A DNA stretch of 64,000 nt, taken from contig DASPSQ010000005.1 in NCBI GenBank assembly GCA_035623855.1, positions 2,093 through 66,092 on the forward strand, read 5' to 3'. The translations under genes were made by a program, and so were the position numbers. The notes beneath the pieces are model-generated. The model was not told where the DNA came from and did no database searches. It worked only from the letters and a program-made list of their open reading frames with translations. Origin of the DNA: Thermoplasmata archaeon. Lineage in GTDB: Archaea > Thermoplasmatota > Thermoplasmata > Lutacidiplasmatales > UBA184. Positions 29,437 through 57,600 of the stretch are shown here, in pieces (the first letter of the stretch is position 1; every line of letters starts with the position of its first letter).

Positions 29437-29448
29437 TTGGATCGACTC

Positions 29449-35289: not shown

Positions 35290-35740
35290 CCTCCGGCTGA
35301 ACGGCCATCCCGTCTCGGTGGCGTGCGAGCCCGCACGGATCCTTCTGGACCTACTGAGAGAGGATCTCGGCCTCACCGGCACGAAGCGGGGTTGCGACCT
35401 CGGGACATGCGGGTGCTGCACCGTCCTCCTCGATGGGCGTCCGACCCTGAGCTGTCTCACGCTCGCGCGTCTCACGGACGGCCGCGCGATCGAGACGATC
35501 GAGGGCCTGACCCCTCCCCGGGGACTTTCGCCGGTGCAACGCGCGTTCGTCGAGCGTGGAGCGACCCAGTGCGGGTTTTGCACCCCGGGCTTCGTGGTGA
35601 CCGCGACGGCCCTCCTTTCCCGAGAGCCGCATCCGAGTCGCTCCGAGATCGAGCGCGCGATCGCGGGGAACCTCTGCCGGTGCACGGGGTACACCAAGAT
35701 CATTGAGGCGATCGAGGCCGCTTCGCGGGAGACCCCCTGA
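35267..35740 (+). CDS. Xanthine dehydrogenase family small subunit, [2Fe-2S]-binding (CoxS/CutS-like).
   Basis: Plant-type ferredoxin motif CDLGTCGCC and a second-cluster motif CGFCTPG…CRCTGY. ATG at 35267 (MPSRDLLNLRLNGHPV). Confidence 0.85.
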   Translation: MPSRDLLNLRLNGHPVSVACEPARILLDLLREDLGLTGTKRGCDLGTCGCCTVLLDGRPTLSCLTLARLTDGRAIETIEGLTPPRGLSPVQRAFVERGATQCGFCTPGFVVTATALLSREPHPSRSEIERAIAGNLCRCTGYTKIIEAIEAASRETP

Positions 35741-38061: not shown

Positions 38062-38067
38062 CGGACG

Positions 38068-44559: not shown

Positions 44560-45531
44560 TCAGAGCATCACACGCAAGTTCAGCTTCTCGGTGAGCTCCT
44601 TGTACCGGTTCCGGATGGTCACCTCGGTGACCCCCGCGACCTCGGCGACCTCGCGCTGGGTGCGCCGCTCGCCGCACTGGACGCTCGCGATGTAGATCGC
44701 GGCGGCCGCGACCCCCGTGGGCCCGCGACCGCTCGTCAGCTCGCGCTCCGTCGCGTCCTTGAGGATCTCGTTCGCCCGGGTCTGGATCTCGCCCTTGAGC
44801 TTGAGCTCGGAGCAGAACCGCTGGATGTAATCCTGCGGCCGCGTGGGCATGAGCTTCAGCTGAAGCTCGCGCGTCATGAACCGGTAGGTCCGGCCGATCT
44901 CCTTGCGGCCGATGTGCGACTTGGAGGCGATCTCGTCGAGCGTGCGTGGCACGTTGCACTGGCGGCAGCTACCGTAGAGGGACGCCGCGACGACCCCCTC
45001 GATAGAGCGGCCGCGGATCAGGTTGCGGTTGACGGCTTTCCGGTAGATCATCGCAGCGGTCTCGCGGACGTTCCGGGGGAGCGCCATCCCGGAGGCGATC
45101 CGGTCGAGCTCGGCAAGGGCGAACGCGAGGTTCCGTTCGGTGGCGTTGGAGACCCGGATCCGTCGCTGCCATTTCCTCAGCCGATAGAGCTGCGCACGGT
45201 TGCGAGTCGGGATCGACTTGCCGTACGGATCGCGGTTCTTCCAGCCGATCTCCGTGGAAAGGCCCTTGTCGTGGATCGTGAGGGTCGTCGGGGCGCCGGT
45301 GCGCGCGCGCTTCTCCCCCTGTTCCGCGTCGAACGCCCGCCAGTCGGGGCCCTGGTCGATCATCGACTCTTCGAGAACGAGCCCACACTCGTCGCAGACG
45401 AGTTCGCCCCGCTCGTAGTCCCGCGTGAGGTGGGTCGATCCACAGCTCGTGCAGCGCGTGGGGACCACGAGGTCCTCAGCCCGGGAGGGGCCTTTCTCGG
45501 GCTCGGTGGGAGGAGCTTCCTCGTTGTGCAT
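44560..45531 (-). CDS. tfb: Transcription initiation factor IIB (TFB).
   Basis: N-terminal Zn ribbon CTSCGS…CDECG, B-reader/linker and two cyclin-like repeats ([18 protein letters not shown]…, [17 protein letters not shown]…). ATG at 45531. Confidence 0.9.
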
Positions 45532-45544
45532 CGCCGCCTCGACG

Positions 45545-45814
45545 TCAGGACTCCCGAACGAGTGAACTCCCGAGGAGGGCGAGGCCCTCGGCAGGGGAAG
45601 GCATGCGACGGGGTCGCACGGAGAGGTAGGGCCGGGCGACCGGACCGAAGACCCGAACGACGCGCCCGCGAAGAATTCCGCGCGAGTCTCGGACCGGCGT
45701 TCCCTCGGGAACGGCCTCCGGGCCACTCGAGCGGACCGTAAGAAGTCCGTTCGGCGTCACGGAGAGTATCATACCGAGGTCGCGCGCTGTCGTGGGACCA
45801 CCGGCTCTCGGCAA
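45545..45814 (-). CDS. gar1: H/ACA ribonucleoprotein complex subunit Gar1.
   Basis: LGMILSV…LTVRS…[31 protein letters not shown] matches the Gar1 beta-barrel consensus (…VxDVFGPVxxPYxxVxP). It lies 13 nt upstream of tfb on the same strand. Confidence 0.65.
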
Positions 45815-45838
45815 GGGGTATAAACGACTTGCGATATG

Positions 45839-45845
45839 TATTTAA
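45839..45845 (-). promoter_or_regulatory. TATA box (TTAAATA on the minus strand) ~25-31 nt upstream of the gar1 ATG; promoter of the gar1–tfb operon.
   Basis: gatatgtatttaagcg is an AT-rich element in a GC-rich context. The spacing is consistent with a leaderless transcript. Confidence 0.4.
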
Positions 45846-45848: not shown

Positions 45849-46955
45849 TTACGCACGAGGTCGAGGGCGGGTCCGAGCGCGATTCGGTACGGGCAGGCCG
45901 TCCGGGTCCACCTCGGAATCGGCCCCGTTCGATAGCTCGGGGGGAACGTACGGCACGTAGTACGACGGGCTCATCTCGGTGGGCACGGGCCGCTCCTCCC
46001 CTTTCTCCTGCTCGACCGGGACGGCTCCCTCCTCGGTGCTCGGCGCGGTGGTCGGCGCCTCCGCCCCTTCCGAAGCGGGAGCTCGACGGGTCGCGAGCGG
46101 CGGACCTTCCGTCGCCCGTTTGCGCTCCCCGGCCAGTTGCGTGACTTCGGCCCAGAGGGCCTCGATCTCCTCTTCCGGGGTACCGTAGCGTCGCTCCTCG
46201 CTGATCGCGGCCCGGACCTGCGCCATGAGGCGCGCGGCGCTCTGCGCGTTCTGAGCCTTCGTCTTGATCCGCTGGATCCGACGCGCGAGGTTGCGCGCCT
46301 CGAGCAGGATCTCGGCCTCCTCCTCCTGCGGAGTGACCGCCGGGAGCGCGGGGGCGCGGGGGATGCGCACGACCGCACGCCGGCACTCGACGAGACGCTG
46401 GGCGGCCGTGGGGATGTTCTGGTCCTGGACCGCCTGCAGGAGCCGCGCGAAGACGCGGGTCACGTCGCTGACGTCTTCGCCGCGGTCCCGGGCCTGGCGC
46501 ATCGACACACCGAGCTGTTGCGCCTCCTGCACGACAAATTTCGGGATCGCGTCGTTGAGAACCGCGAGGGCGAGCGACGCGCTCGCCGCGGCCTTCTGGA
46601 GCGAGCCCATGCTGAGCGGCTCGTCCTTGAGCCGCTGCCGGGGGTTCCCGACGCGGCGATCGAGGTGCACGACGTCCACTCCGATCGATTCCGCGACCGA
46701 CCGGAGCTCGTCCGCGCGGCGGAGAAGCTCGCGGACCCAGGTCCAATCCGGCCGGACCCGGGCGAGCAGCGCCTCCCCTCGCTTCACGACGAGGTTCGCC
46801 TCGCTCTGCTGCCCTCCACGGATCGCCTCCTCGTACGCCGCCGAGATTTGGTCCGTCGGGAACGGGAGGCCCTCCGACTCGAGGACGTGACCCTGCTCGA
46901 CGAGCGCGTCGAGCCGTGCCTTCCATGGGTCCGCCGGCCGGTTCTCGGGCTTCAC
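45849..46955 (-). CDS. Hypothetical coiled-coil protein (368 aa) with an acidic/Pro-rich C-terminus.
   Basis: Long helical, Ala/Arg/Glu/Gln-rich segments with no domain I can recognise. It starts 4 nt after the upstream gene's stop. Confidence 0.45.
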   Translation of the reverse strand: MKPENRPADPWKARLDALVEQGHVLESEGLPFPTDQISAAYEEAIRGGQQSEANLVVKRGEALLARVRPDWTWVRELLRRADELRSVAESIGVDVVHLDRRVGNPRQRLKDEPLSMGSLQKAAASASLALAVLNDAIPKFVVQEAQQLGVSMRQARDRGEDVSDVTRVFARLLQAVQDQNIPTAAQRLVECRRAVVRIPRAPALPAVTPQEEEAEILLEARNLARRIQRIKTKAQNAQSAARLMAQVRAAISEERRYGTPEEEIEALWAEVTQLAGERKRATEGPPLATRRAPASEGAEAPTTAPSTEEGAVPVEQEKGEERPVPTEMSPSYYVPYVPPELSNGADSEVDPDGLPVPNRARTRPRPRA

Positions 46956-46958
46956 GGC

Positions 46959-48200
46959 CTAGGACCCCTGCACATCGGCGGACAGCATTCGCATCAGCCG
47001 GCTCAACGTCAAGTCCGCCTCTTTCAGCTGCCGCGCCCGGAGCAGTTCGGTCGCCTCGCGGATCTGGATCGCGGCGTCGTGCGCCGTCTCGCTGTCCGGA
47101 GGGAGCGTTCGTACCCGACCCGCGAGCGTCCGAGCCTTCTTGAGGAGACGGTCGAGCATCGCCTCCTCCGACTCCGCTGGTTCGGGTGGCGCGGGAGGAG
47201 CCGGCGGGGGTGGCGCGGTCTTCTTCTCGAGCTCGAGAAGCTCCGCCCGAAGGTCCCGGACGCTCTGGACGGCCTCCGAGAGGCGGCCCTTCTTGAGGTG
47301 ACGGGTCGCCTCCAAGTGGAGGCGCCGGGCGGCGGCGCTCACCGAGGAGTCGTCCGGGTATTTGCTCAACGCCGCTTCGTGGCGCGCGAGCTCCGTCTCG
47401 AGCGAGGACGGGATCGCCTCGTGGAGCAGCATCAACGTCTGGGCCGCTTCCTCGGCGATCCGGTCGAGCGCGTCCTCCGAGAGGGACGGTCCCGCGATGT
47501 GGTCGCGAATCGCCTCGATCTCGCTCGAGATTTCTCCCAGAGGGAATCCGAGCTCTTCGGCCTCGGCGCGGAGCCCCTGGATCTGCGAGAGGAGCCCCTG
47601 GAGGCCCTTCCAATCGGCTTCGAACTGGCCGATCCGCTGCTCGGCGGCGACGAGGAGGTTCGCCGCCTCCTCCCGCTCACCGGAATCGATCGCGCCGTTG
47701 AGCTCGGCCAGGTCTCCGCCGAGGGCGAAGTGGACCCCGGTCTTCTCGAGGGCGGACCGCCGATCGGCGAGCAGCTGCGCGCGGGTCCGAAGGACTTCAT
47801 CCGTCTGCGTCTCGAGCCGCTGCTGGGCCGATCGGAGGATGTCGAGCGCTTCCGCGACGCGTCCCTCGGCTTCGCTCAGAGCCGCCTCGCAAAGCTCCGC
47901 GGTGACATCCGGCCCCGGACCGAGCCCGCGGACGAGGTCCATCTTGGAGCGAAGGTCGCGGCTGATCGCCGCGTTCAGTTCCTCCTCCGCGGACAGAGGA
48001 ACTGCCGCGGGTGTTGGACGGGGCTCAACGGCTGCGACCGGTCCGTCCGCGACCAAACTGTCGGTCTCCTCGTCCGAGATCGATCGAAGCCCCTCGATCG
48101 CGAGCGCCGTCGGAAAGCCACAGACCGAGCAATGCACGGCGGTCGACGCGATGGGCTGCTCGCAGATCGGACAACTCGACGGCACGGGCGACCTGTTCAC
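46959..48200 (-). CDS. Hypothetical protein with an N-terminal zinc ribbon followed by a long coiled-coil region and a PPPPAPPAPP linker.
   Basis: CPICEQPIASTAVHCSVCGF at the N-terminus, followed by ~350 aa of Leu/Ala/Glu-rich helix. Confidence 0.5.
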   Translation of the reverse strand: MNRSPVPSSCPICEQPIASTAVHCSVCGFPTALAIEGLRSISDEETDSLVADGPVAAVEPRPTPAAVPLSAEEELNAAISRDLRSKMDLVRGLGPGPDVTAELCEAALSEAEGRVAEALDILRSAQQRLETQTDEVLRTRAQLLADRRSALEKTGVHFALGGDLAELNGAIDSGEREEAANLLVAAEQRIGQFEADWKGLQGLLSQIQGLRAEAEELGFPLGEISSEIEAIRDHIAGPSLSEDALDRIAEEAAQTLMLLHEAIPSSLETELARHEAALSKYPDDSSVSAAARRLHLEATRHLKKGRLSEAVQSVRDLRAELLELEKKTAPPPPAPPAPPEPAESEEAMLDRLLKKARTLAGRVRTLPPDSETAHDAAIQIREATELLRARQLKEADLTLSRLMRMLSADVQGS

Positions 48201-48276
48201 TCTGGAAAGCGATGGGCCTGCCCTTAAGGACTTCTCCCGAGGGTCCTCCCGGTTCCCCCGAGACGCCGGCCGACGA

Positions 48277-48582
48277 TCACCCGCCGCTGAACGTGGAGAT
48301 CACGATCAGCCGCATCGGTCGGTCGATCGGGGTGTCGAGGGGGATCGGCGATTCCTCGAGGAGAACCGCGCTTCCTTCGGGCGGAAGGCCGGCCGAATGG
48401 AGCGCGGCCCGGACTTGCGTCCCGGCCGGGACACGGATCCGCCGGCGTCGCACGGACGCCCCGCGGGTCACTTCGAGCACGACGGAGATCACCGGAGGAG
48501 AGGAGGCGCTGAGGGGGAGAGTCTCCGGCGGCCGGGGATCGCCCGACGCGTCCTTTGAACTCCCGCGATGCATACGCATCAC
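48277..48582 (-). CDS. MoaD/ThiS-family ubiquitin-like small protein (SAMP-like) with a C-terminal Gly-Gly. The N-terminal start is uncertain.
   Basis: The C-terminal half, VRVPAGTQVRAALHSAGLPPEGSAVLLEESPIPLDTPIDRPMRLIVISTFSGG*, follows the MoaD/ThiS beta-grasp pattern (…AVNxExV…LxDGDxVxIxPPxSGG). The N-terminal ~30 aa are low-complexity. Confidence 0.45.
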   Translation of the reverse strand: MMRMHRGSSKDASGDPRPPETLPLSASSPPVISVVLEVTRGASVRRRRIRVPAGTQVRAALHSAGLPPEGSAVLLEESPIPLDTPIDRPMRLIVISTFSGG

Positions 48583-48611
48583 CAGATCTCGAATCTGGCG
48601 CCTTGGCCGAG

Positions 48612-49682
48612 CTAGGCTACCTCAGCACCCGACGGGGCGAGTTGCGGCGGCCTTTTTCGTTTTGTGGTCGGGTCCTGGGGACGGTTCGGGTCGGCCGCCG
48701 CCAGCGAGGCCTTCAGCCGGCCGATGGCATCCGCCGGGTACGGGTCGACACCGCTCCGGTGGGCGAGGACGAGGCTCACCTGGTCGCCCAGGGCGACCCC
48801 GGCGATCAGCGCCTCGAGTCGATCTTCGGCGTCGAGCAGGACCGGGATCGCCCGGGCGCCCCGGGCGGCGAGGAGCTTCTGGAGGTAGTGAAGCCGGGTC
48901 CGAAGTCCCGCCGGGGCCTCCGACCACTCGAGAAGCAGCGCGGCGGTCCGCGTCCCGTCGGTCCGGCGGATCGCGTCCCACGCGACGATCGAGTTATGGA
49001 AGACCTCGGGGACCTCGTCGAACGCCGCGAGGCGCTTTGCGTTCTCCTCAATCTGCGTCTTCCAGCGACGCGCGAGGGCGAGGAACGAACTCTCCGCATA
49101 GACGAACGGGAACCGGTCGCCCACCTTTGCCGCGATCGACGCAGCCGGACCCCGCGCGTGGGCGATCGAGCCCATTCGGGACCGTACGTGCTCGGAGATC
49201 CGTGCGACGCGCACCTCGTTGGATTCGGGAAACCATGGGTCGAGGAGCCCGAGGATCCCGCCGAGAAGATGACCGACCGCCGCGCGCGGGGGGTGGCCCG
49301 ATGGGACCAGCAGGACCGGGACGTCCTCTTTCGCGGCACGCTCGGCGAGCTCCCCTCCCGACGCGATGACCGTCCGGTGGGCTCCGATCTTCCGGGCCGT
49401 TTGGAATGCTTGGAGGGTCTCCCAGGTGTCGCCGGAGTAGCTGATGAGGATGACGTGGGCTCGGCTATCGAGACCGTGCGGCAGCTCCGGCGACCGGACG
49501 ACCGTCAGCATCGCCGGGGTCTCCGCCTCGACCACGCCCCGCACGAGGTCCGCGGCGATCGCCGAACCCCCCATCCCGACCGCGACGATGGGCGATGCAC
49601 CTCGTGCCGGCCGCGCGAGCTCGAGGCCGGCGGCGAAGCCCTCGCGCAGCGCGGTCGGGAGGTTCGCAACGAGCGAGCGCAT
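48612..49682 (-). CDS. Bifunctional phosphoglucose/phosphomannose isomerase (SIS domain, archaeal PGI/PMI family).
   Basis: SIS motifs VAVGMGGSAIAADL and ILISYSGDTWETL, and a second SIS-like half. The ATG at 49682 is preferred over the track start. Confidence 0.7.
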   Translation of the reverse strand: MRSLVANLPTALREGFAAGLELARPARGASPIVAVGMGGSAIAADLVRGVVEAETPAMLTVVRSPELPHGLDSRAHVILISYSGDTWETLQAFQTARKIGAHRTVIASGGELAERAAKEDVPVLLVPSGHPPRAAVGHLLGGILGLLDPWFPESNEVRVARISEHVRSRMGSIAHARGPAASIAAKVGDRFPFVYAESSFLALARRWKTQIEENAKRLAAFDEVPEVFHNSIVAWDAIRRTDGTRTAALLLEWSEAPAGLRTRLHYLQKLLAARGARAIPVLLDAEDRLEALIAGVALGDQVSLVLAHRSGVDPYPADAIGRLKASLAAADPNRPQDPTTKRKRPPQLAPSGAEVA

Positions 49683-49852
49683 CCGGGTCAGCCCGTCCGG
49701 CTCCCTTCTCTCCACGGCGCTCGGGGGCCAGCGCGGGGTCATATGGGTTACGGGGAGAGTACGGCCGAATTCGCAGAAACTTCAAGAGGCCCCCCCTCCC
49801 ATCTTCGACCTAGCGAGCAACGTTCACTTCGAACGCGCTGAGAGGAGTCTCC

Positions 49853-52066
49853 GTGGCGACCCCGACCGCACATGCGCCGCCGACGGAGGCACGCGTGTCG
49901 ACCGGCAATCGGGATCTCGACAGCATGCTCGAAGGCGGCCTGGTGGCCCGTCGCCCGTACCTCGTCGTCGGCCCGTCGGGGACCGGCAAGACCACGCTCG
50001 CCCTTCAGTTCCTGTGCGAAGGGATTCGGAACCACGAGCGGGCCCTTCTCGTCACCATCGAAGAGCCGCCGAACGAAGCCCGCCTCAACCACCCCGGGCT
50101 CTCCCCCGAGCTCGAACGGGTTGACGTCTTTGACGCGATCCCGGACATCATGCGGTACGAGCGGGTCCCGTTCAAGGACATCGCGTCGGTCCGCTACGCG
50201 CAGCCGTTCGCGGCCGTACCTCTGTCGATCCGTCAGTCGCCCGAGCTCTCGTCGGTGGAGGTGACCCTCGCCGCGCTCGAGCAGATGCTCCGGACCGAAG
50301 TCCTGCGCAAGGGGTACTCGAGGGTCGCGATCGATTCGCTCACGGCGCTTCAGTACTTTTGCATGAAAGGCTTCGAACCGGTCGCAGGCGCCCAGACGTT
50401 CCTGCGGTTCCTGTCCGACCTGCGGGTCACCACGATCATCACCGTCGAATCCCCCCTCGAGGACGTCGAGACCCCCGAGCGAGCCCTCGCGCGCGGGGAG
50501 ATCCGGCTCTTCCGCTGGGAGCACGAGAACCGAACCGTGCGCGCGATCGGAGTCGAGAAATTCCGGGGAAGTCCGCACGACGTCCGGCTGCATCCGTACC
50601 GGATCGGTCCCCATGGGCTCGACATCAATCTCGAGCTGACGATCTCGCGGGACACCCGCCAGATCATCGAGCCGGCTCCTCCTGCGTTCGCGATCGCGAC
50701 CCCGACGCCGATTCCGCTCGAGGAGGTCATCTCTCCGGTCGACCCCCTCGCCGAGGAGGTGCGGGACCTCGTCCTGGTCGGGGCGGACCTCGGTCCAGTG
50801 CGGACCGAGATCGAGGCCGCTCTGGGCGCGCTTGCCGCCGGCGACATCGAGCGCTCCCGAGGCCACATGTCGCGAGCCACCTCGCAAGTGATCGCGCTCT
50901 CCGCCGCGATTCCCCCCTCGCCCGAGACGGAGGTCCAGCGTCCGGTGGAGGTCGAGGAGGCGTTCCAGCGTCTCGTCCAGCGGGGAGAGTCCGCGAGGGC
51001 GGGGTTCCCGCCCACCCGGCTCCCTCCCCCGCGAGTCCTGGAGGTCGAGCTCGAGTGGGTGCTCTCCCTGATTCCCCCTGCGGCGGTTCCCTCCGAAGCC
51101 GAACCGGCCGAAGCAGTCATCCCGATCGCGGAGGGACCCGCCCTCGAACTCATCCCGGAGGCGGAGGTCGTCGCCGAGGCGGCTCCGGCCGCCGGGGCCG
51201 AGCCACCTCTCCCGAGTGTCGAGGAGCCCCCCATCGCGGTGACCGTGGAAGCTCAGATTCCGAAAGAGTCCGCCTCGGAAGAGCCCAGGGAGCCGACCCC
51301 TCCGCCGATTCCGACCCCTGCGGCAGAGCCGGCTCCAACTCCCACAGAGCCTCAGCCTCCGACAGTTCCAGAACCGCCGACGGTCCCTGTGACCTCACCA
51401 CGCTACCCCGCCCCTCCCGAACCACCCTCTCGCCCCCCCGTTGCGGCACCCCCTGAGCCCACGCGAGTCCTCCACGCTACGGGGGCTGCCCGCCCAGCGG
51501 AGCCCCCGGCCCCGCCAAGAGCCGAGGAGCCACGGCCTCCGTTGCCGTCCTTCGAAGTCGCCGCAGAGAAACCCACGAAAGCCCCCGGACACGGCGGCGG
51601 CTCCCGGGGCACCGGGACCCTCGTGTCGACCGGGCGGGCGCACGCACCCCGTCTCTCGTCCACCCCGGGCGGCCCTCGGCTACCCGCCACAGGGACCGTG
51701 CCGACCGGCGGAGCCGCGGAGGTTCAGAGTCCGACAACTCCAGGGGCTCCATCGAAGCGGAGGAAGAAGCCGACACCGGCCGTGCGAAAGAAGCCGGTCT
51801 CGACTGCCGTCCGCTCCGAACCCGTCCACGTTCCGCATGCAGCGCCGACCCCGCCTCCTCTCCCCGGTAGCCACACGCTCCACCCGCCCGAGGTTCCCTT
51901 GCCCCCGACCTCGCCGCCGCGGGCCAAGAAACGGACGGCCCGGAAACGCAAGGCGCCGACCGCGACGGGGGAGAGTGCGGGACCGCTTCGAGGGGCGGAA
52001 TCCTCCTCTGACGCCCACTCCACGGATTCCCCGGCTCTAGATCCCGAGCCGAAGGAGGGTGCGTGA
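49853..52066 (+). CDS. KaiC-like RecA-superfamily ATPase (single KaiC/RadA-paralog domain, ~250 aa) fused to a ~480-aa Pro/Ala/Glu-rich disordered tail with basic clusters.
   Basis: NRDLDSMLEGGLVARRPYLVVGPSGTGKTTLALQFL is the KaiC/RadA-like Walker A region; a Walker B-like VAIDSL follows. The tail carries PTPT/PEPP repeats and KRRKKPTPAVRKKP / RAKKRTARKRKAP basic patches. GTG start with an AGGAG 6-10 nt upstream. Confidence 0.65.
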   Translation: MATPTAHAPPTEARVSTGNRDLDSMLEGGLVARRPYLVVGPSGTGKTTLALQFLCEGIRNHERALLVTIEEPPNEARLNHPGLSPELERVDVFDAIPDIMRYERVPFKDIASVRYAQPFAAVPLSIRQSPELSSVEVTLAALEQMLRTEVLRKGYSRVAIDSLTALQYFCMKGFEPVAGAQTFLRFLSDLRVTTIITVESPLEDVETPERALARGEIRLFRWEHENRTVRAIGVEKFRGSPHDVRLHPYRIGPHGLDINLELTISRDTRQIIEPAPPAFAIATPTPIPLEEVISPVDPLAEEVRDLVLVGADLGPVRTEIEAALGALAAGDIERSRGHMSRATSQVIALSAAIPPSPETEVQRPVEVEEAFQRLVQRGESARAGFPPTRLPPPRVLEVELEWVLSLIPPAAVPSEAEPAEAVIPIAEGPALELIPEAEVVAEAAPAAGAEPPLPSVEEPPIAVTVEAQIPKESASEEPREPTPPPIPTPAAEPAPTPTEPQPPTVPEPPTVPVTSPRYPAPPEPPSRPPVAAPPEPTRVLHATGAARPAEPPAPPRAEEPRPPLPSFEVAAEKPTKAPGHGGGSRGTGTLVSTGRAHAPRLSSTPGGPRLPATGTVPTGGAAEVQSPTTPGAPSKRRKKPTPAVRKKPVSTAVRSEPVHVPHAAPTPPPLPGSHTLHPPEVPLPPTSPPRAKKRTARKRKAPTATGESAGPLRGAESSSDAHSTDSPALDPEPKEGA

Positions 52067-52842
52067 GCGCCTCCGACCTCCTTTCGGAGCACCGCGTGCC
52101 GACCGGGATCCCCGGCCTCGACCGGATGCTCGGGGGTGGGTTGGTCGCGGGCCGGCCGTACCTCGTGACGGGAGGCACCGGCAGCGGCAAGACCCTCCTC
52201 GGGCTCACGTTCCTTCTGGAGGGTCTGAAGCGAGGGGAGGAGGTCCTCCTTGTCGCGGTCGACGAGCCCCCGAGCGAGATCATCGAGAACGTCCAGTCGT
52301 TCGGCTGGGACCTCTCTTCGGTGAAAACCCTCGAGGCGAATCCCGGCACGCATGCGATCAAGCGGAACGTCGCGGTGCAGGAGATCCGCACGATGACCGA
52401 CCTGAAGTCGATGCGCGACCTCTCCCAGGAAGTAAAGCGGCCGGCCGACCTCGAGGACATCTCGATCCAGTCGATCCAGCTCAAGCTGCGTCAGCAGATG
52501 ACGACCCTGCCGTTCCGCCGGGTCCTGGTCGATTCGATCACGTCGGTCCGCCGGTTCGCGATCAAATCGTCGGTCGACCCTCAGGCCGAACGGACCGAGA
52601 TCCAGTCACTGCTCCGATTCCTCTCGGAGGCGGGGGTGACGACCCTCATCACCGCGACCCCGAGCGACCCGGCGTTGCTGACGCCCGAGGAGATCCTCAC
52701 GCGGGGCGAGATCCTCCTCACCCGCAAGTGGGTCGGAGACCGCTCGGTACGCCAGCTCAAGATCGTACGGATGCGCGGCTGCGCCCACGATCCGGAGCGT
52801 CGCCCGTTCGTCATCACCCCGCAGGGCATCGTCGTCGCCTAA
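52063..52842 (+). CDS. KaiC-like RecA-superfamily ATPase (single domain, 259 aa).
   Basis: GIPGLDRMLGGGLVAGRPYLVTGGTGSGKTLLGLTFL, Walker B VLVDSITS. The GTG start overlaps the upstream stop (GTGA). Confidence 0.7.
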   Translation: MSASDLLSEHRVPTGIPGLDRMLGGGLVAGRPYLVTGGTGSGKTLLGLTFLLEGLKRGEEVLLVAVDEPPSEIIENVQSFGWDLSSVKTLEANPGTHAIKRNVAVQEIRTMTDLKSMRDLSQEVKRPADLEDISIQSIQLKLRQQMTTLPFRRVLVDSITSVRRFAIKSSVDPQAERTEIQSLLRFLSEAGVTTLITATPSDPALLTPEEILTRGEILLTRKWVGDRSVRQLKIVRMRGCAHDPERRPFVITPQGIVVA

Positions 52843-52865: not shown

Positions 52866-53393
52866 ATGGGCGGAGGCCGGTTCGGCCTCGCCGTGGCGTT
52901 CTGGCTCGTGAAGGAGGAACCCCGGCACTACTCGTGGACTGACCTCGAGCGGGAGGGAGGTACCGAGTGGGATGGAGTCCACAACGCTCTGGCGCTGCGG
53001 AACCTGAAATCGATGGGGGCGGGGGACCGGGCGATCTTCTACCATTCCGGCGATGAGCGCTCGTGCATCGGGATTCTGGAGGTCGTCGGTTCCCCGCATC
53101 CCGACCCCCGCGACGCGCGGGGCTCGTGGTCGGTCGAGGTGCGGCCGGTTCGACCCCTGCGCCGACCGATCCCTCTCGCGGAGGTGAAGGCCGACCCGGC
53201 GCTCCTTGGGTTCGATCTGATTCGTCTCGGGCGTCTCTCGGTCGTCGCGGTGTCGGACGACCAGTGGGCCCGTCTGCTCGCCCACGAGGACGCCACTCCG
53301 GTTCCGGCCCGGCCGGCTACGGAAGCGCGCGCGGGTCGCGCGCGACGTAGCGCGCGACGTCGGAGACCGCGCGCGGCGCGGCGTAGACGCTGA
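52866..53393 (+). CDS. EVE (PUA-like) domain protein with an Arg-rich C-terminal tail.
   Basis: FWLVKEEPRHYSWTDLEREGGTEWDGVHNALALRNLKSMGAGDRAIFYHSGDERSCIGILEVVGSPHPD matches the EVE/PF01878 consensus (WLxKxEPxxYSxxDL…WDGVRN…MKxGDxxxFYHS). It lies 24 nt after the second KaiC-like gene. Confidence 0.6.
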   Translation: MGGGRFGLAVAFWLVKEEPRHYSWTDLEREGGTEWDGVHNALALRNLKSMGAGDRAIFYHSGDERSCIGILEVVGSPHPDPRDARGSWSVEVRPVRPLRRPIPLAEVKADPALLGFDLIRLGRLSVVAVSDDQWARLLAHEDATPVPARPATEARAGRARRSARRRRPRAARRRR

Positions 53394-54579
53394 CGGCCCA
53401 CTCGGATGGAGGTCGGGCGGCGAGCGTTCGCCACGGACTCGGCCGTCGGAAGGGAAAGAGCGTTCCCTCCCCTGTGAGGAGCCCGATCTCCCCCCAATCA
53501 TCCTCCGGAGCGTCCCGGGTGTCGAGCATCGCGAGGTCGATCAGCACCGAGCCCGCGGGCCGACGGACGCCGGACGCGATTTCGTCCTCGAGCGCGCGCC
53601 GCTCGGCCGGTCGACCGAGGAGCCGCTCCCACCGGGCCCGGGTTGGCCCTGGAAGAGTCGTCCAACCGAAGGCACGCTTGTAGAGGCGCCGCTCCAAGAG
53701 CCCCCGGGCAAGCGCCTCGCTCAGTCCCCCGGCTCCCTGGAGGCGGTCCAGGAACTCGCCGTCCGTTCGGCCGAACAGCGGCCGGGCGGATTCGGGATAT
53801 CCCGGCATCCGTTCCACGGCCGCCTGCGCCATCATCTCGGCCGCGCGGACGGTCTTGTGAAAGTACACGGATGTGTACATGAGCGCTCGACCCACAAGGA
53901 ACCCCTCGACGGCGCTCCGACCCTTCTCGGCGAACGCGAGCCGCCCCCCGGCCGCCCGGACTGTGTCGAGGAGCCGAACGGCGTCGATCGCCCCGTGCGC
54001 GACCCCGGTGTAGTACGCGTCCCGCTGGAGGTAGTCGATCCGGTCCGCATCGATCGGGCCGTGGAGGATCTGGCGAAGGAGAGGGGGACCGCGCGTAGAC
54101 CGACGGGGATCGATCAGGTCCGCCACGTCGCGGGGGTCGAGGCGGAATCGGGAGAGGACGGCCGGGACCTCCGGATGCTCCCACGGACCCTCCGATTCGG
54201 TTCCCTCGATGCGGGCCCGGGAGAGCGTCTCGTGCCCGAATCCGAGCACCTCGCGCATCGGTGAATCGAGGGTGTGGGAGAAGGGACCGTGGCCGACGTC
54301 ATGGAGGAGCGAACCCGCCGCGACCCGGGACGCGTCGCTCGCGGGGAGATCTAGGCGGGCCGCCATCTCGCTCGCGACCCAGTAGGTTCCGAGCGAATGT
54401 TCGAGCCGCGTGTGATTCGCTCCGGGGAAGACGAGATGGGCGAATCCCGTCTGGCGAATGCCCCAGAGACGTTGGAATTCCGGCGTACTGACCAGCGCGA
54501 GGGCGACACCGTCGAGTCGGATCGGGCCGTGGACCGGGTCGAAGATCGACTTGTGGTGGGAACGGGCCCGAGACCGCAT
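53317..54579 (-). CDS. HD-domain phosphohydrolase (dGTPase-like, COG1078-type).
   Basis: HTRLEHSLGT, LLHDVGHGPFSH, DADRIDYLQRDAYYTG. The 3' end overlaps the EVE gene tail by 77 nt (convergent). Confidence 0.7.
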   Translation of the reverse strand: MRSRARSHHKSIFDPVHGPIRLDGVALALVSTPEFQRLWGIRQTGFAHLVFPGANHTRLEHSLGTYWVASEMAARLDLPASDASRVAAGSLLHDVGHGPFSHTLDSPMREVLGFGHETLSRARIEGTESEGPWEHPEVPAVLSRFRLDPRDVADLIDPRRSTRGPPLLRQILHGPIDADRIDYLQRDAYYTGVAHGAIDAVRLLDTVRAAGGRLAFAEKGRSAVEGFLVGRALMYTSVYFHKTVRAAEMMAQAAVERMPGYPESARPLFGRTDGEFLDRLQGAGGLSEALARGLLERRLYKRAFGWTTLPGPTRARWERLLGRPAERRALEDEIASGVRRPAGSVLIDLAMLDTRDAPEDDWGEIGLLTGEGTLFPFRRPSPWRTLAARPPSEWAVSVYAAPRAVSDVARYVARDPRALP

Positions 54580-54686: not shown

Positions 54687-57600
54687 ATGGCCGAGGACGA
54701 CTCCGCACCGGTGGCGAAGGCACCGACCGGCACCGACCCCATCGAGGAGATCCGCCGCCAGTTCCAAGAGGTGCATGCGGCGGAGGCTCGCCCGGACCGG
54801 GCCCGGTACCTGAGCAGTCTCAAGGGGTTCTTCGCCACGGTCGAAGCCCACTCGAAGGAACTCGGCCCCGCCGCAAGCGAAATCGCGCCGATGCTTGCCG
54901 ACGTGGCACTTGCGTTCTCGCGCGCCTCCCACCCGGATCTCGCCCGGCGTGCTGTCGATCTCGGCCTGGAGTTCTCCCCGGGCTCGTCCGCCCTCTTGCA
55001 TCACAAGGCGCTTCTCCTGCTCGGCCAGAACCAGGACCTTCCTCAGGTTCTGACGCTGGTCGATAGGGCGCTCGAAGGGAACCCGAACGACAAAGGTATC
55101 TGGGCGACCCGAGGGGACGTGCTCCGCCTCCAGGGTCGTGCGCCGGAGGCGGTGGAATCGTACCTTCACGCGCAACAGCTCGATGCGTCCTCCACCCAGT
55201 ACGTCGACAAGGCCCTCAAGCTGGCCCCCCACGACCCTCACACGTTGCGCGCGAAGCTCGACCTCGCGCGAGCGTTGGGTGGAGACGTCCGTGCGCTCGC
55301 GGCCTGTGATGAACTGCTTGCGATGAATCCGGACGACCTGGAGCTGGTCCGTGCGAGGGCCGAACTCCTGGCAGCGCTGGGTCGCGGCGCCGACGCACTC
55401 GAGCCGATCCAACGGGTACGGGCGGCCCACCCGGACGACGCCCGCGCTGCACTCTTCCACGCTCGGCTACTGTACCAGCTCGGCCAGGACGAGGAGGCCC
55501 AAGCGATTTCAAAGTCCATCATCGAGGCGCCGACCCCGCCGGAGCCCGCGGCGCTCGAAGAGCTCGCGCACCTCACGGAGCCGAAGACCCCCGAGCTCGC
55601 GCTGGCGGCCCGGGAGCGCCTGCAAGCGGTCGACTCGCGGAACGTCCAGAACCTTTTGGATCTGCGGGCCCTCGCGATGCGGCTCGAACGGCCCGAGCCG
55701 GCCCTCAAAGCGTGCCAGGCGATCCTCGCCGCGCACCCACAGAACCTGGAGGCGATGCGAGGGATCGCTGAGATCGAGCTCGCCGAGGGACATCACGACG
55801 CGGCGCTCGAGGCGTATCGGGACCTTCTGAAAGCCCACCCCCACGCGCTGAGCGAGTCGAGGAAGGGCCTCGAGGCGGCGCGGGAGGCGAACCGGCCGGA
55901 TCTCGTCCGGGAGTTCGCCCAGGCGATCCTGGTCGAGGAGCCGAACGATCTCGCCGCCCAGCTCGGGCTCGCCCGGGCATTCTCGAGCGCGGGCGACGCG
56001 GAGGGGGCGATCAAGGCGTACGACGCGCTACTCGAGGCGCATCCGGGAGAGCTCCCGTACCTTCTGGAGAAGAAGGAGATGGTCGCCCGGACGAACGACC
56101 CCGGCAAGCTCGCCCCCGTTCTGGACGAGCTGTTCCGACTCGACCCGACGCGCACGGATGTCGCGATCGAGCGGGGGAACCTCTTCCTCTCGCTCGCGTA
56201 CGACCGCGCGGAGGGTTCTGCGGAGCGGGACCAGGCGGCGCGGACCGCGCTCGTTTCCTACGAACGGGCATCGAGCGATCCCGACGCCGTGGACGTCGCG
56301 GAGCTCGGGGTCGCCCGAGCCTCGCGTCTCGTGAACGATCACGATCGTGCGATCCGCGCCTACGAGGCGTTCCTCGCCCGGGAACCGAACCACATGCGGA
56401 ACGACATCCTCAAGGAGCTCGGCCACGCGCTTAGAGAGACCGGTCGGTACTCGGAGGCCGCCGAGGCGTACGGGCGGGCGATCGGGGGTGGCCTCGAGGA
56501 CTCCGATCTCTTCTGGGGCGCGGTCGATGTCCTCGCGCTCCTGAACCAGGACGCTCGGGCCCTTCAGCTGCTCGAGCTCCTCTTGCGACGCGAGCCCGCG
56601 AATCCGCTGTACCTCCGCAAGCGGGGTCAGCTCCTCCTCAAGGCGGGCCGCCGTTCCGAGGCGCTCAGCACGCTCCAAGAAGCCGTGCAGGCCGCACACG
56701 GCGATCCCCACTCGTACTTCGAGGTCGCGGAAGCACTGCGCGCCCAGGGCGCCTACGCCGATGCGCTGACGTACTACCGGCAGGGCCTCGGGATCGATCC
56801 GAAGAACCGGCACGGCCGGCTCGCGCTCGCCGAGACCCTCCAGCTCGCCGGCCAGTACTCGGAGGTCCCGGGAATCGTCGACCCGCTCCTCAACGAAGAG
56901 CCGAACGACCTTGCGGCCTGGAAGGTCCGGGGCGATGCCCTTCGGGCCCTCGGTCGACCCGCCGAGGTGCTGTACTCGCTCCGCGCCATCCTCCTCCTGG
57001 AACCCGACAACGGCCCAGCACTGCTCGAGAAGTACCGTCTCCACACCGAGATGAACGAGACGAAGGAGGCGTTCGAGACTCTGAGCCACCTGTTGTCCAC
57101 CACTGCCCCCGAGGCCCAGGACGCGACCCTCCACCTCGAACGGGGAGACCTCGCGGCAAGCCTCGGATTGACCGAGGAAGCGAACGTGTCGTACGAGCAC
57201 GCCGCTCAGATCGATCCGGCGTACCGTACCGAGATCGCGATCCGACGGGCGCGCCTTCGCCTGACCGCCGGGAGGCCCGACCTCGCGCTCGAAGTCCTGG
57301 ACGAGGGACTGAAGGCCGCCCCCGCAGGCGCGCCGCCGAACATCGGGGCGCTCCTCCTGCGCGCGGAGATCTTGGGGGCGCTCGAGCGACCGGCCGAGGC
57401 GCGGGCCGCCTATGAGGAGGTCCGCCAGCGGGAGCCGAAGTCACCTCTAGCGCTCGCGGGAATCGCTCGGTCGATGCTCGAGGAGGGCCAACACGCCGAG
57501 GCGGCCGAGTTCCTCCGGACCGCGATCCCGCAGGCCCCTCCCCAGGAGTCCCTCTACCTCCTCCTCGGCGAAGCGGAGAGCGGTCTCGGCCACCTCGACA

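What the first reader, a model, noticed from the sequence alone, without database searches (positions are those of the whole stretch)
45849..48582. MoaD/ThiS-like Gly-Gly ubiquitin-like gene upstream of two coiled-coil proteins, one with a zinc ribbon
The small ORF ends …RLIVISTFSGG*, the hallmark C-terminus of ThiS/MoaD/SAMP sulfur-carrier or ubiquitin-like modifiers. No E1 (MoeB/ThiF), molybdopterin synthase or thiamine gene is adjacent. Instead it sits directly upstream (same strand) of a Zn-ribbon + coiled-coil protein and a second coiled-coil protein, which themselves lie just upstream of gar1–tfb. This may be an orphan Ubl used as a protein modifier (SAMP-like), linked to structural coiled-coil proteins.
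Basis: partly seen in the sequence, partly recalled or inferred. Interest (0 to 1): 0.55.

Follow-up and report, generated by a model that had tools for sequence, protein, structure and literature searches.

The report
Ubiquitin-like gene starting inside a tRNA
The small Gly-Gly gene is a real ubiquitin-like sulfur-carrier gene, but in this soil archaeal order its reading frame appears to start inside a working, intron-containing serine tRNA gene, while its link to the two neighbouring helical proteins is only conserved gene order.

Summary
The ORF ending …TFSGG* is real. It is conserved in more than 160 relatives. Residues 31-101 model as a beta-grasp (pLDDT 92-98), closest to TtuB, SAMP2 and MoaD/ThiS. 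No E1, JAMM, MoaE or ThiG gene lies in the 64 kb window.

It supplies the first ~25 codons of the ORF.

Evidence that translation starts inside the tRNA:
- In 160 of 161 distinct relatives, an ATG in the tRNA variable arm is in frame with the Ubl and the frame stays open.
- All length changes (at least 13 events in the spacer; intron 33 or 30 nt) are multiples of three.
- Most species have no start codon between the tRNA and beta-strand 1.
- The one out-of-frame relative has its own ATG there.
- Outgroups have an intron-less tRNA-Ser followed by a Ubl with its own start.

This rests on comparative evidence only; there are no expression data.

The two "coiled-coil" genes are paralogous, lineage-specific helical-bundle proteins, one with a zinc ribbon. 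They are translationally coupled and have their own conserved promoter. A functional link to the Ubl is not shown.

The parts
48507..48626 (-). tRNA-Ser(CGA) gene, class II with a long variable arm, interrupted by an intron. Exon 1 is 48554-48626 and exon 2 is 48507-48520. The anticodon CGA is at 48589-48591.
   Evidence: Rfam tRNA scores 25.7 bits in E-value mode only. ARAGORN finds tRNA-Ser(cga) after in-silico intron removal, and does so for 58 of 58 distinct relatives. The exons are almost invariant (four variable positions) across 57 distinct same-length sequences. Outgroups carry an intron-less orthologue that ARAGORN finds directly.
48521..48553 (-). 33-nt tRNA intron in the T-loop, between tRNA nucleotides 59 and 60. 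It sits in a bulge-helix-bulge-like fold and equals 11 in-frame codons of the Ubl ORF.
   Evidence: Alifold consensus and pair counts. The 3-nt bulges AAG and ANU flank a 3-bp-plus-mismatch helix; this was read from the alignment by eye. The length is 33 nt in every genome locus that could be measured (62 of 62). In metagenome sequences it is 33 nt in 96 and 30 nt in 3.
48277..48579 (-). Ubl ORF, long form of 100 codons from the ATG at 48577-48579. A second in-frame ATG is at 48571-48573 and a GTG at 48580-48582. The stop TGA is at 48277-48279.
   Evidence: The variable-arm ATG is in frame and the frame is open in 62 of 62 genome loci and 98 of 99 metagenome sequences. All indels lie in the tRNA-to-beta1 spacer and are multiples of 3. 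An SD-like GGTGAT lies 4 nt upstream of the second ATG (sequence).
48280..48492 (-). Beta-grasp core of the Ubl, 71 codons. NCBI's annotation starts it at GTG 48490-48492. It ends FSGG.
   Evidence: AF2 model: residues 31-101 have pLDDT 92-98 with E-E-H-E-E-E topology. Foldseek matches MoaD2 6jc0, TtuB 5ztb/5gha, SUMO and Caldiarchaeum ubiquitin. A PDB profile search gives TtuB, SAMP2, PF1061 and MoaD2/ThiS as the top 7 hits. Pfam SAMP2 is hit by 23 of 30 relatives.
48651..48666 (-). A-rich BRE/TATA-like element (CACAAAACGAAAAAGG), 25-40 nt upstream of the tRNA 5' end and inside the 3' end of the PGI ORF. It is the putative promoter of the tRNA-Ubl unit.
   Evidence: An equivalent 'GGAAAgg..cAAAT/cTAAAg' element sits at the same distance in nearly all relatives. 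Its function is inferred.
48221..48238 (-). Conserved BRE/TATA-like element (GGGAGAAGTCCTTAAGGG; family consensus cGAAAGGGaTTAAGGgcg), about 40 nt upstream of the CC1 GTG start.
   Evidence: Right-aligned intergenic regions of about 60 loci. Its function is inferred.
46959..48185 (-). CC1: a 408-aa protein with an N-terminal zinc ribbon (Cys5, Cys8, Cys19, Cys22; nt 48120-48173), a disordered linker, then about 340 residues of helical bundles.
   Evidence: Invariant Cys and His residues. AF2 mean pLDDT 84.6. No PDB fold or sequence match. The family has only 110 representatives among 1.84 billion proteins, all named 'hypothetical'. The conserved start GTGCCGTCCAGCTG reads MPSSC.
45849..46955 (-). 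CC2: a 368-aa paralogue of the CC1 core, with a variable C-terminal tail of about 90 residues that carries a VPYVPPE motif and a basic end. It is translationally coupled to CC1.
   Evidence: BLASTP of CC1 125-378 against CC2 4-250 gives E=2e-7. Conservation profile. The junction has GAGG-type SD motifs, TAG/TGA/TAA stops, variable frames and ATGA overlaps.
45833..45845 (-). TATA box (CTTAAATACATAT) between the CC2 stop and Gar1. It marks the start of the separate Gar1-TFB unit.
   Evidence: Sequence. An AT-rich element like this stands out in a genome of about 68% GC. Its function is inferred.
44560..45771 (-). Gar1 (45545-45771) and TFB (44560-45531), the downstream neighbours. They are context only.
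   Evidence: NCBIfam Gar1 and TFIIB hits.

Best explanation
**What the locus holds.** There are three transcription units.

**Unit 1: tRNA-Ser(CGA) plus a beta-grasp protein.**
- The protein is a small SAMP2/TtuB/ThiS-class beta-grasp with a free C-terminal Gly-Gly.
- By analogy with that class, an E1-like enzyme encoded elsewhere would adenylate it. It would then serve as a thiocarboxylate sulfur carrier, as a lysine modifier, or both. This function is inferred.
- The tRNA-then-Ubl arrangement is ancestral. Outgroup Thermoplasmata have an intron-less tRNA-Ser(CGA), then 13-93 nt, then a Ubl with its own start codon.
- In the order that contains this window (probably Lutacidiplasmatales, also called UBA184 or TMEG), three things changed: the Ubl lost its own start, the spacer shrank to 5-17 nt, and the tRNA acquired a T-loop intron of 33 nt (11 codons).
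- The reading frame now opens at an AUG in the tRNA variable arm, preceded by an SD-like GGUGAU. It runs through the T arm, the intron and the 3' acceptor strand into the Ubl. The product is about 100 aa with a disordered N-terminal tail of about 30 residues.
- The start inside the tRNA is inferred from comparative constraints, not shown directly.
- A further inference is that each primary transcript has one of two fates. Maturation by RNase P, tRNase Z and the splicing endonuclease yields the tRNA and destroys the message. Translation before or instead of processing yields the Ubl.

**Unit 2: CC1-CC2.** This is a translationally coupled pair of lineage-specific paralogues with their own promoter. 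CC1 has a zinc ribbon plus helical bundles. Their function is unknown, and a heterodimeric scaffold is only a guess.

**Unit 3: Gar1-TFB.**
For: **Identity of the Ubl**
- Invariant ...SGG* and 11 invariant residues in 30 sequences.
- The PDB profile search returns only sulfur-carrier or Ubl beta-grasps as its top 7 hits: TtuB E=1.2e-3, then SAMP2, PF1061, Hvo SAMP2 and MoaD2/ThiS.
- AF2 core pLDDT is 92-98 and the N-terminal 30 residues score 47-67.
- Foldseek matches MoaD2, TtuB (29% identity), SUMO and archaeal ubiquitin.
- Pfam SAMP2 is hit by 23 of 30 relatives and ThiS by 9 of 30. The outgroup orthologue in L070 passes both gathering cut-offs.

**tRNA**.

**Start inside the tRNA**
1. The variable-arm ATG is in frame with an open frame in 62 of 62 genome loci and 98 of 99 further metagenome sequences.
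2. All length variation among 62 ORFs lies in the spacer between the tRNA 3' end and beta1. There are five length classes and at least 13 changes on an NJ tree, all multiples of 3. The intron is 33 nt or 30 nt, never another length.
3. Only about 10 of 59 loci have an in-frame ATG/GTG/TTG between the tRNA end and beta1. About 10 have none within 90 nt. On a rooted tree such starts are sporadic and absent from the earliest branches.
4. The single out-of-frame relative, L094, has its own ATG exactly at beta1.
5. Five outgroup loci have an intron-less tRNA, no ATG in the variable arm, and a Ubl with its own start.
6. Every ingroup sequence keeps at least one ATG in the arm.

**Promoters and units**.

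**CC1/CC2 coupling and paralogy**.
Against: **Against a start inside the tRNA**
- There are no expression data of any kind: no transcript ends, ribosome footprints or peptides.
- The proposed SD and AUG lie in the anticodon stem and variable-arm hairpin of a stable tRNA fold. tRNA maturation would cut the message, so efficient translation is not obviously possible.
- This particular genome does have a GTG at 48490-48492 just before beta1, which NCBI's annotation uses (P0006, 71 aa). The short form is therefore possible here.
- The intron shows no codon-position signature.
- Depletion of stop codons in frame 0 is weak evidence in T-poor sequence. It is 0 of 59, against 7 and 4 of 59 in the other two frames.
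- The sequences are phylogenetically related, so counts overstate independence.
- An internal promoter in the tRNA gene cannot be excluded.

**Against the function assigned to the Ubl**
- The window protein itself scores below the Pfam and NCBIfam cut-offs: 18 bits against 27, and 14 against 70.
- No E1 was found, so the chemistry is inferred from family resemblance only.
Confidence: 0.6

Rival explanations
1. Conventional arrangement. The Ubl is an independent CDS of about 71 aa that starts just after the tRNA (GTG 48490-48492 here). It is released from a tRNA-mRNA co-transcript by tRNase Z, as in the outgroups. The in-frame continuity with the tRNA is a by-product of the scarcity of stop codons in high-GC DNA. 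Species without ATG/GTG/TTG would then use unusual start codons.
For: - A GTG is present at the right place in this window, and NCBI calls a 71-aa protein.
- The outgroups use exactly this arrangement.
- The N-terminal extension is predicted to be disordered and is variable wherever the tRNA does not fix it.
- The stop-depletion signal is weak.
Against: - The GTG is not conserved. About 49 of 59 loci have no canonical start that would leave beta1 intact, including the deepest ingroup branches.
- At least 13 spacer indels are all multiples of 3, in a segment this model treats as non-coding.
- 160 of 161 sequences are in frame, and the only exception has its own ATG.
Confidence: 0.22
2. The Ubl is a SAMP-like modifier functionally tied to the two helical proteins, either as their modifier or as part of one machine, and is expressed with them as an operon.
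For: - The Ubl-then-CC gene order holds in all ingroup loci where both genes could be located, and in 5 outgroup loci.
- In L070 the called CC gene starts 4 nt after the Ubl stop.
Against: - A conserved promoter-like element lies between the Ubl and CC1 in the ingroup.
- Insertions between the two genes occur in L041 and L068.
- The whole 10-kb neighbourhood is syntenic, so adjacency carries little specific information.
- No E1, E2-like or JAMM gene is in the cluster.
- There is no co-occurrence outside one lineage to test the link.
Confidence: 0.12
3. The Ubl is simply the organism's MoaD (small subunit of molybdopterin synthase) or a generic sulfur carrier, with no role in modifying proteins. 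This concerns function only and is compatible with either gene architecture.
For: - The best Foldseek hit is mycobacterial MoaD2.
- ThiS/MoaD Pfam hits occur in 9 of 30 relatives.
- The window encodes a molybdenum hydroxylase cluster with XdhC, so Moco synthesis is needed.
Against: - No MoaE or other Moco biosynthesis gene is adjacent.
- Sequence profiles favour SAMP2 and TtuB over MoaD.
- The core is 70 aa, the size of SAMP2, ThiS or TtuB. MoaD is typically 80-90 aa (general knowledge).
Confidence: 0.25
4. The ORF is a spurious high-GC open frame.
For: The genome is about 68% GC and full of long shadow ORFs.
Against: The sequence shows amino-acid-level conservation with invariant residues and a GG end in more than 160 sequences, and it gives a confident beta-grasp model.
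Confidence: 0.01

Closest known systems
SAMP2 (Haloferax volcanii, Pyrococcus furiosus) and eukaryotic Urm1
   Same: All are small beta-grasps of about 66-70 aa with a C-terminal Gly-Gly. The best Pfam family is SAMP2 (PF21965), and PDB profile hits include 5lda_B, 4hrs and 2l32. In H. volcanii, SAMP2 with the E1 UbaA and NcsA serves both wobble-uridine tRNA thiolation and protein conjugation (PMC4048286).
   Different: Sequence similarity is marginal, and the window protein is below the curated cut-offs. No UbaA, NcsA or JAMM gene was seen in the window. The gene is fused in frame to a tRNA gene and encodes an N-terminal tail of about 30 residues. I know of no report of this for SAMP2 or Urm1.
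TtuB (Thermus thermophilus sulfur carrier for s2T54 that also forms conjugates)
   Same: It is the top PDB sequence-profile hit (5ztb_E, E=1.2e-3) and the closest by identity in Foldseek (29%). The alignment runs through the terminal GG.
   Different: TtuB is bacterial and works with TtuA and TtuC. No TtuA-like gene is in the window. Any role in tRNA thiolation here is speculative.
tRNA-mRNA co-transcripts (for example the E. coli thrU-tyrU-glyT-thrT-tufB operon, and mitochondrial tRNA punctuation; my own knowledge)
   Same: A protein-coding message is made from a tRNA promoter and sits directly 3' of a tRNA. The outgroup loci look exactly like this.
   Different: In those systems processing releases an intact ORF. 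In the ingroup the start codon and about 25 codons lie inside the tRNA, so tRNA maturation and translation of the same molecule exclude each other.
Dual-function RNAs (tmRNA; bacterial sRNAs that also encode small proteins, reviewed in PMC12612679)
   Same: One transcript carries both a structured non-coding function and a translated reading frame.
   Different: In this locus the non-coding part is a standard elongator tRNA that must be cut out and spliced. The coding part is a full domain protein downstream. I found no described case of an ORF that starts in a tRNA variable arm and reads through a tRNA intron.
Archaeal non-canonical tRNA introns (Thermoproteales, ARMAN, Korarchaeum; PMC4033280)
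   Same: The intron lies outside position 37/38, sits in a bulge-helix-bulge-like fold, and is missed by standard tRNA finders.
   Different: It occurs in Thermoplasmata. By my own knowledge, the characterised Thermoplasma splicing endonuclease is an alpha2 homodimer; PMC4033280 states that Korarchaeum is the only alpha2-type archaeon known to have non-canonical introns. Its length is fixed at 33 nt (rarely 30 nt) across an order while its sequence varies freely. That fits a reading-frame constraint.

Membership tests
ThiS/MoaD/SAMP/TtuB beta-grasp sulfur carriers and ubiquitin-like modifiers | Beta-grasp fold | tested here: met
   In the AF2 model built from a 30-sequence alignment, residues 31-101 have pLDDT 92-98 with a strand-strand-helix-strand-strand-strand order. 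Foldseek finds 58 PDB matches at E<=1e-3; all 50 listed hits contain a ubiquitin-like/beta-grasp domain.
ThiS/MoaD/SAMP/TtuB beta-grasp sulfur carriers and ubiquitin-like modifiers | Gly-Gly as the last two residues, directly before the stop | tested here: met
   ...TFSGG* in the window. S99, G100 and G101 are invariant in 30 of 30 sequences. In the metagenome set, 98 of 99 in-frame ORFs end in GG, and the exception, L094, ends in GG in its own frame.
ThiS/MoaD/SAMP/TtuB beta-grasp sulfur carriers and ubiquitin-like modifiers | Score above the curated family HMM cut-off (Pfam PF21965 SAMP2 or PF02597 ThiS; NCBIfam NF041919) | tested here: inconclusive
   The window protein scores 18 bits against a cut-off of 27 for SAMP2, and 14 bits against 70 for NCBIfam SAMP2. 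SAMP2 is hit at E<=0.01 by 23 of 30 relatives and ThiS by 9 of 30. The outgroup orthologue in L070 passes both Pfam cut-offs, at 28.1 and 24.3 bits.
ThiS/MoaD/SAMP/TtuB beta-grasp sulfur carriers and ubiquitin-like modifiers | A cognate E1-like adenylating enzyme (UbaA/MoeB/ThiF/TtuC) in the genome | not testable with these tools
   None lies in the 64 kb window. The rest of the genome could not be read.
SAMP-type protein modifier (sampylation) | Isopeptide conjugates to target lysines, and a JAMM/HvJAMM1-type desampylase | not testable with these tools
   No JAMM domain is in the window. Conjugation needs experiments.
MoaD (small subunit of molybdopterin synthase) | Association with MoaE or the Moco biosynthesis genes | tested here: not met
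   No MoaE or MoaA/B/C gene is in the window or in the ±6-10 kb flanks of related loci. This does not exclude a MoaE gene elsewhere.
Archaeal intron-containing tRNA | A canonical cloverleaf with the correct class II features after intron removal | tested here: met
   Removing tRNA positions 74-106 gives ARAGORN tRNA-Ser(cga) in 58 of 58 distinct sequences. The mature length is 87 nt. The T-loop reads TTCAAAT.
Archaeal intron-containing tRNA | A bulge-helix-bulge motif at the exon-intron junctions | tested here: inconclusive
   The alignment fits h-B-H-B-h'. The T stem is the outer helix, the 3-nt bulges are AAG and ANU, and the inner helix G75-C100, C77-G98, G78-C97 is supported in 53-57 of 57 sequences. 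The central helix has only 2-3 pairs plus an A·G mismatch, a register I read by eye. Cleavage was not tested.
Long coiled-coil / SMC-like structural proteins (as suggested for CC1 and CC2) | Long uninterrupted coiled-coil arms, with ATPase head motifs for SMC or SbcC | tested here: not met
   The AF2 model shows 12 helices of 12-42 residues packed as antiparallel bundles. There is no P-loop or ABC family hit. The only matches are weak low-complexity ones: ASRP at E=1.6e-3 and FIMAH. There is no PDB fold hit below E=0.8.
Zinc-ribbon domain (CC1 N-terminus) | Two CxxC knuckles that are conserved | tested here: met
   C5, C8, C19 and C22 (and H18) are invariant in 35 sequences and are kept in the outgroup homologues. 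Pfam zinc-ribbon hits are only weak.

The most novel reading that the evidence does not exclude
A functional elongator tRNA gene doubles as the translation start region of a protein gene. In Lutacidiplasmatales, the primary transcript of tRNA-Ser(CGA) would be a bifunctional RNA. One fate is maturation into tRNA. The other is translation from an AUG in the variable arm, through an in-frame 33-nt tRNA intron, into a ubiquitin-like sulfur carrier. The T-loop intron may have been acquired, and held at a multiple of three, to delay tRNA folding and processing. That would couple Ubl output to pre-tRNA flux.
Probability: 0.45. Interest if true: 0.85.

Novelty: new variant of a known kind. Interest (0 to 1): 0.66.

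Why it matters
The Ubl itself is one more member of a known class. Its gene architecture is the interesting part.

**What would be new**
- If translation really starts inside the tRNA, this would be a conserved, order-wide case of a protein reading frame overprinted on a working tRNA gene and on a tRNA intron.
- tRNA maturation and mRNA function would then compete for the same molecule.
- I found no precedent in the searched literature.

**What it would offer**
- A natural system to study competition between ribosomes and RNase P, tRNase Z and the splicing endonuclease in archaea.
- A possible selective reason for a non-canonical tRNA intron of fixed length.

**Practical consequences for annotation**
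- Standard tRNA finders miss this tRNA-Ser(CGA).
- Gene callers disagree on the Ubl, giving either about 70 or about 100 aa.
- tRNA-aware pipelines may trim or drop the Ubl in species that have no downstream start codon.

**Testable prediction**
- The peptide DASGDPRPPETLPLSASSPPVISVVLEVTR, or its equivalents in other species, should appear in soil or peat metaproteomes.

The CC1/CC2 pair is a compact, well-folded family specific to Thermoplasmata with no known relatives. It is worth noting but remains unexplained.

Tried and rejected
**Readings considered and rejected**
- Stop-codon readthrough or pyrrolysine at the in-frame TAG between CC1 and CC2. Relatives use TAG, TGA or TAA, with variable frames and ATGA overlaps, preceded by GAGG-type SD motifs. 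This is ordinary translational coupling.
- CC1-CC2 as one 774/793-aa gene, as in L001/L061. Rejected as probable compensating indel errors in a long-read assembly, because the junction translates as out-of-frame-looking sequence.

**Searches that found nothing useful**
- ARAGORN and Rfam gathering mode on the raw window: no tRNA. E-value mode and in-silico splicing were needed.
- Looking up the window's own contig through P0006: not on record.
- Identity of CC1: the PDB sequence profile gave only a spurious bS20 hit. Foldseek against PDB gave nothing below E=0.8. Pfam gave only weak FIMAH, YfdX and zinc-ribbon hits, and nothing for the five outgroup CC homologues.
- The sigma-70 promoter and intrinsic terminator scan found nothing and does not apply to archaea.
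- Literature searches for an ORF starting within a tRNA gene, for tRNA-like elements, and for dual-function tRNA precursors found no precedent. The Lutacidiplasmatales paper does not mention a Ubl.

**Tests that were uninformative or weak**
- Codon-position GC and variability in the intron: RNA structure dominates.
- Stop-codon depletion in frame 0: in the expected direction but weak.
- Absence of the GTG+TTG combination in the variable arm: suggestive, but TTG arose in a single clade, so the test has little power.

- Searching the genome for an E1 or JAMM gene.

Full report
**1. The observation**

The window is about 68% GC. It comes from a Thermoplasmata MAG: the Ubl core is 99% identical to NCBI protein VEK13_02720. 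The related loci include UBA184 and the Lutacidiplasmatales MAGs AcS1-45 and SubAcS13-64. That order is described as about 69% GC with genomes of about 2.1 Mb (PMC9287336).

The minus strand carries, in order:
- a bifunctional PGI/PMI gene (48612-49742);
- the ORF in question (48277-48582, ...RLIVISTFSGG*);
- a 408/413-aa protein (46959-48185/48200);
- a 368-aa protein (45849-46955);
- Gar1 and TFB.

Pfam scans of about 55 ORFs across the window found no ThiF-type E1, JAMM, MoaE or ThiG. The descriptive part of the finding therefore holds.

**2. The Ubl is real and belongs to the ThiS/MoaD/SAMP class**

- A database search gave 142 homologues.
- An alignment of 30 shows invariant R40, G54, E69, G70, V73, P81, L82, D83, S99, G100 and G101.
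- A profile search of PDB sequences returned beta-grasp sulfur carriers or modifiers as its seven best hits, aligned through the terminal GG: TtuB, P. furiosus SAMP2, PF1061, H. volcanii SAMP2 and MoaD2/ThiS.
- AlphaFold2 gives a confident beta-grasp for residues 31-101 (pLDDT 92-98) and a low-confidence N-terminal 30 residues.
- Foldseek matches MoaD2, TtuB (29% identity), SUMO and Caldiarchaeum ubiquitin.
- The window protein is below the curated HMM cut-offs. However, 23 of 30 relatives hit Pfam SAMP2, and an outgroup orthologue passes the SAMP2 and ThiS thresholds.

**3.

In the alignment, the N-terminal 'extension' shows two nearly invariant blocks, MHRGSSK and LPLSAS, around a variable stretch. 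At the DNA level this is a tRNA.
- Positions 48626-48507 (-) read as acceptor stem, D arm, anticodon arm (CGA), long variable arm and T arm, with an insertion in the T-loop.
- ARAGORN and Rfam at gathering thresholds find nothing. Rfam in E-value mode gives tRNA at 25.7 bits.
- Deleting about 33 nt makes ARAGORN call tRNA-Ser(cga).
- With the intron defined as tRNA positions 74-106 (window 48553-48521, between nucleotides 59 and 60), all 58 distinct relatives give tRNA-Ser(CGA).
- The exons are almost invariant (four variable positions), while the intron varies and keeps an internal helix.
- The junctions fit a bulge-helix-bulge-like arrangement with a weak central helix. That register is my reading of the alignment.
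- Non-canonical tRNA introns are known mainly from Thermoproteales, ARMAN and Korarchaeum (PMC4033280).

**4. Evidence that the reading frame really starts in the tRNA**

I fetched 64 loci from distinct GTDB species through CC1, so the sample is not biased by how the Ubl ORF was called.

(a) Frame and length.
- In all 62 distinct loci, an ATG of the variable arm (tRNA positions 48-50 and/or 54-56) is in frame with the Ubl, and the frame is open.
- The T arm plus intron is always 58 nt.
- The distance from the tRNA 3' end to the Ubl stop is 218, 221, 224, 227 or 230 nt.

(b) Where the length changes fall.
- Aligning the 62 full ORFs puts every gap in the segment between the tRNA 3' end and beta-strand 1.
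- On an NJ tree this length changed at least 13 times, always by multiples of three.
- If the spacer were untranslated, that outcome would be very unlikely. It is about (1/3)^13 under a crude neutral model.

(c) Lack of a downstream start.
- Only about 10 of 59 loci have an in-frame ATG, GTG or TTG between the tRNA and beta1.
- About 10 loci have none within 90 nt.
- On a tree rooted with outgroups, such codons are sporadic GTG valine codons. A real ATG occurs in only one subclade, and the earliest ingroup branches have none.
- The Ubl core is nonetheless under clear purifying selection in all of them.

(d) Independent replication.
- A metagenome scan with a 19-mer spanning the variable arm and T arm gave 99 distinct sequences with enough downstream DNA, 88 of them new.
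- 98 are in frame and open through to ...GG*.
- The intron is 33 nt in 96 and 30 nt in 3.

(e) A natural control.
- The single out-of-frame sequence, L094, has its own ATG exactly at beta1 (MIEVTIELARG...TFSGG).

(f) Outgroups.
- Five more distant Thermoplasmata loci (L066, L068-L071) have an intron-less tRNA-Ser(CGA) that ARAGORN finds directly.
- They have no ATG in the variable arm, a spacer of 13-93 nt, and a 75-80-aa Ubl with its own start.

Together these results indicate that the tRNA-then-Ubl pairing is ancestral. The ingroup then moved the start codon into the tRNA and lost the original one.

An SD-like GGTGAT lies 4 nt before the second ATG. SD use in this lineage is suggested by the GAGG motifs before CC2.

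Weaker or uninformative tests:
- There is no codon periodicity in the intron.
- Frame 0 has no stops in 59 of 59 loci, against stops in 7 and 4 of 59 for the other two frames.

**5. Transcription units**

- A conserved A-rich BRE/TATA-like element lies about 25-40 nt upstream of the tRNA in nearly all loci. In the window it is 48651-48666, inside the PGI 3' end, and the PGI stop codon falls in the tRNA D-loop.
- There is no room for a promoter between the tRNA and the Ubl.
- A very well conserved 'cGAAAGGGaTTAAGGgcg' element lies about 40 nt upstream of the conserved GTG start of CC1 (MPSSC...). In the window it is 48221-48238.
- A TATA box, CTTAAATACATAT, follows the CC2 stop.

The locus therefore reads as [tRNA-Ser + Ubl], [CC1-CC2] and [Gar1-TFB]. 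Promoter function is inferred from conservation and position only.

**6. The two 'coiled-coil' proteins**

- CC1 has four invariant cysteines (CxxC-x10-CxxC) and about 100 invariant positions in 35 sequences.
- Its AF2 model (mean pLDDT 84.6) has a small zinc-ribbon region, a disordered linker, and 12 helices packed as antiparallel bundles.
- There is no significant PDB fold match and no PDB sequence match.
- CC2 is a paralogue of the CC1 core (E=2e-7 over about 250 residues). It has a variable tail with a short VPYVPPE motif.
- The CC1/CC2 junction varies in stop codon, spacing and frame, and carries SD-like motifs. The two genes are translationally coupled, and the in-frame TAG in this window is incidental.
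- An exhaustive profile search of 1.84 billion representatives found only 110 relatives: CC1-type, CC2-type and a third, shorter group. All ten I looked up were either named 'hypothetical' or carried no name; the named ones came from Thermoplasmata or Euryarchaeota MAGs.
- Outgroups carry a single 447-544-aa homologue that matches both CC1 and CC2. The pair therefore arose by duplication or fission.
- Their function remains unknown.

**7. Is the Ubl linked to CC1/CC2?**

The gene order is conserved in the ingroup and the outgroups. So is the whole block KaiC | PGI | tRNA | Ubl | CC | Gar1 | TFB | TldD/PmbA. A promoter-like element separates the Ubl from CC1. Insertions between the two are tolerated in L041 and L068. 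I therefore treat the link as unproven, with a probability of about 0.1.

**8. Most likely mechanism**

Shown by computation:
- the fold class and the GG terminus;
- the tRNA and its intron;
- the frame and length constraints;
- the absence of alternative start codons;
- the ancestral arrangement in the outgroups.

Inferred:
- Transcription starts from the tRNA promoter.
- Translation starts at the variable-arm AUG on unprocessed or partly processed precursor, giving a protein of about 100 aa with a disordered tail.
- tRNA maturation and translation exclude each other on a given molecule.
- An E1 encoded elsewhere activates the Ubl for sulfur transfer and/or conjugation, as for SAMP2 with UbaA and NcsA (PMC4048286).

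Speculative:
- The intron, fixed at a multiple of three, slows tRNA maturation and so permits translation.
- A role in tRNA thiolation would make the tRNA linkage meaningful.

**9. Novelty and score**

As a protein, this is a new member of a known class. As a gene, an ORF that starts in a tRNA variable arm and reads through a tRNA intron, conserved across an archaeal order, has no precedent that I could find. The nearest concepts are tRNA-mRNA co-transcripts, tmRNA and dual-function sRNAs (PMC12612679).

The evidence is comparative but internally consistent. It was replicated on an independent sample and comes with a natural control. It makes a sharp prediction for proteomics. I rate overall interest at 0.66 and put about 0.6 on the embedded start being real.

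Noticed in passing
window 48612-48626 (-): The PGI/PMI ORF runs 15 nt into the tRNA-Ser gene, and its TAG stop lies in the tRNA D-loop. The putative tRNA promoter lies inside the PGI 3' coding end.
   Followed up: partly
L001 10349-12730 and L061 (OY970259.1): In this long-read MAG, CC1 and CC2 appear as one 793-aa ORF. The junction translates as Arg/Pro-rich sequence that looks out of frame. Two compensating indel errors are more likely than a true fusion.
   Followed up: partly
window 25309-30957 (-): Three consecutive genes: a 985-aa and a 388-aa protein with no Pfam hit at all, next to a von Willebrand A-domain protein (29449-30957). This may be an uncharacterised system.
   Followed up: no
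window 49853-52842 (+): Two adjacent KaiC/RecA-like ATPase genes lie divergent from PGI, and the arrangement is syntenic in all relatives. The first encodes 737 aa with a Pro-rich tail of about 450 residues. The second encodes 259 aa.
   Followed up: no
window 54687-59351 (+): A 1554-aa protein made almost entirely of TPR repeats. An HD-domain protein lies just upstream on the opposite strand (53317-54579).
   Followed up: no
L068 3772-5142; L041 between the Ubl and CC1: A 456-aa DDE-transposase-like gene in L068 and an insertion of about 0.9 kb in L041 sit between the Ubl and the CC gene. The adjacency is therefore not obligatory.
   Followed up: partly
proteins P0314, P0315, P0319, P0326 and similar: A third family of shorter proteins (about 190-280 aa) from Thermoplasmata MAGs matches only positions 253-367 of the CC1 profile. 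This suggests a shared helical module used in other proteins.
   Followed up: no
window 46137-48227 (+): A 696-aa ORF antisense to CC1/CC2 is a high-GC shadow frame (GC1 0.86, GC3 0.75), not a gene. It shows how misleading long ORFs are in this genome.
   Followed up: partly
window 34441-39051 (+): A molybdenum hydroxylase cluster of the xanthine/CO dehydrogenase type: XdhC, a 2Fe-2S subunit, a molybdopterin-binding subunit and an FAD subunit. The organism must therefore make Moco and needs a MoaD-type carrier somewhere.
   Followed up: no
window 60049-60765 and 61988-62968 (+): Two more proteins with N-terminal zinc ribbons (Zn_Ribbon_1/DZR) lie nearby. I did not test whether they are related to CC1.
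   Followed up: no
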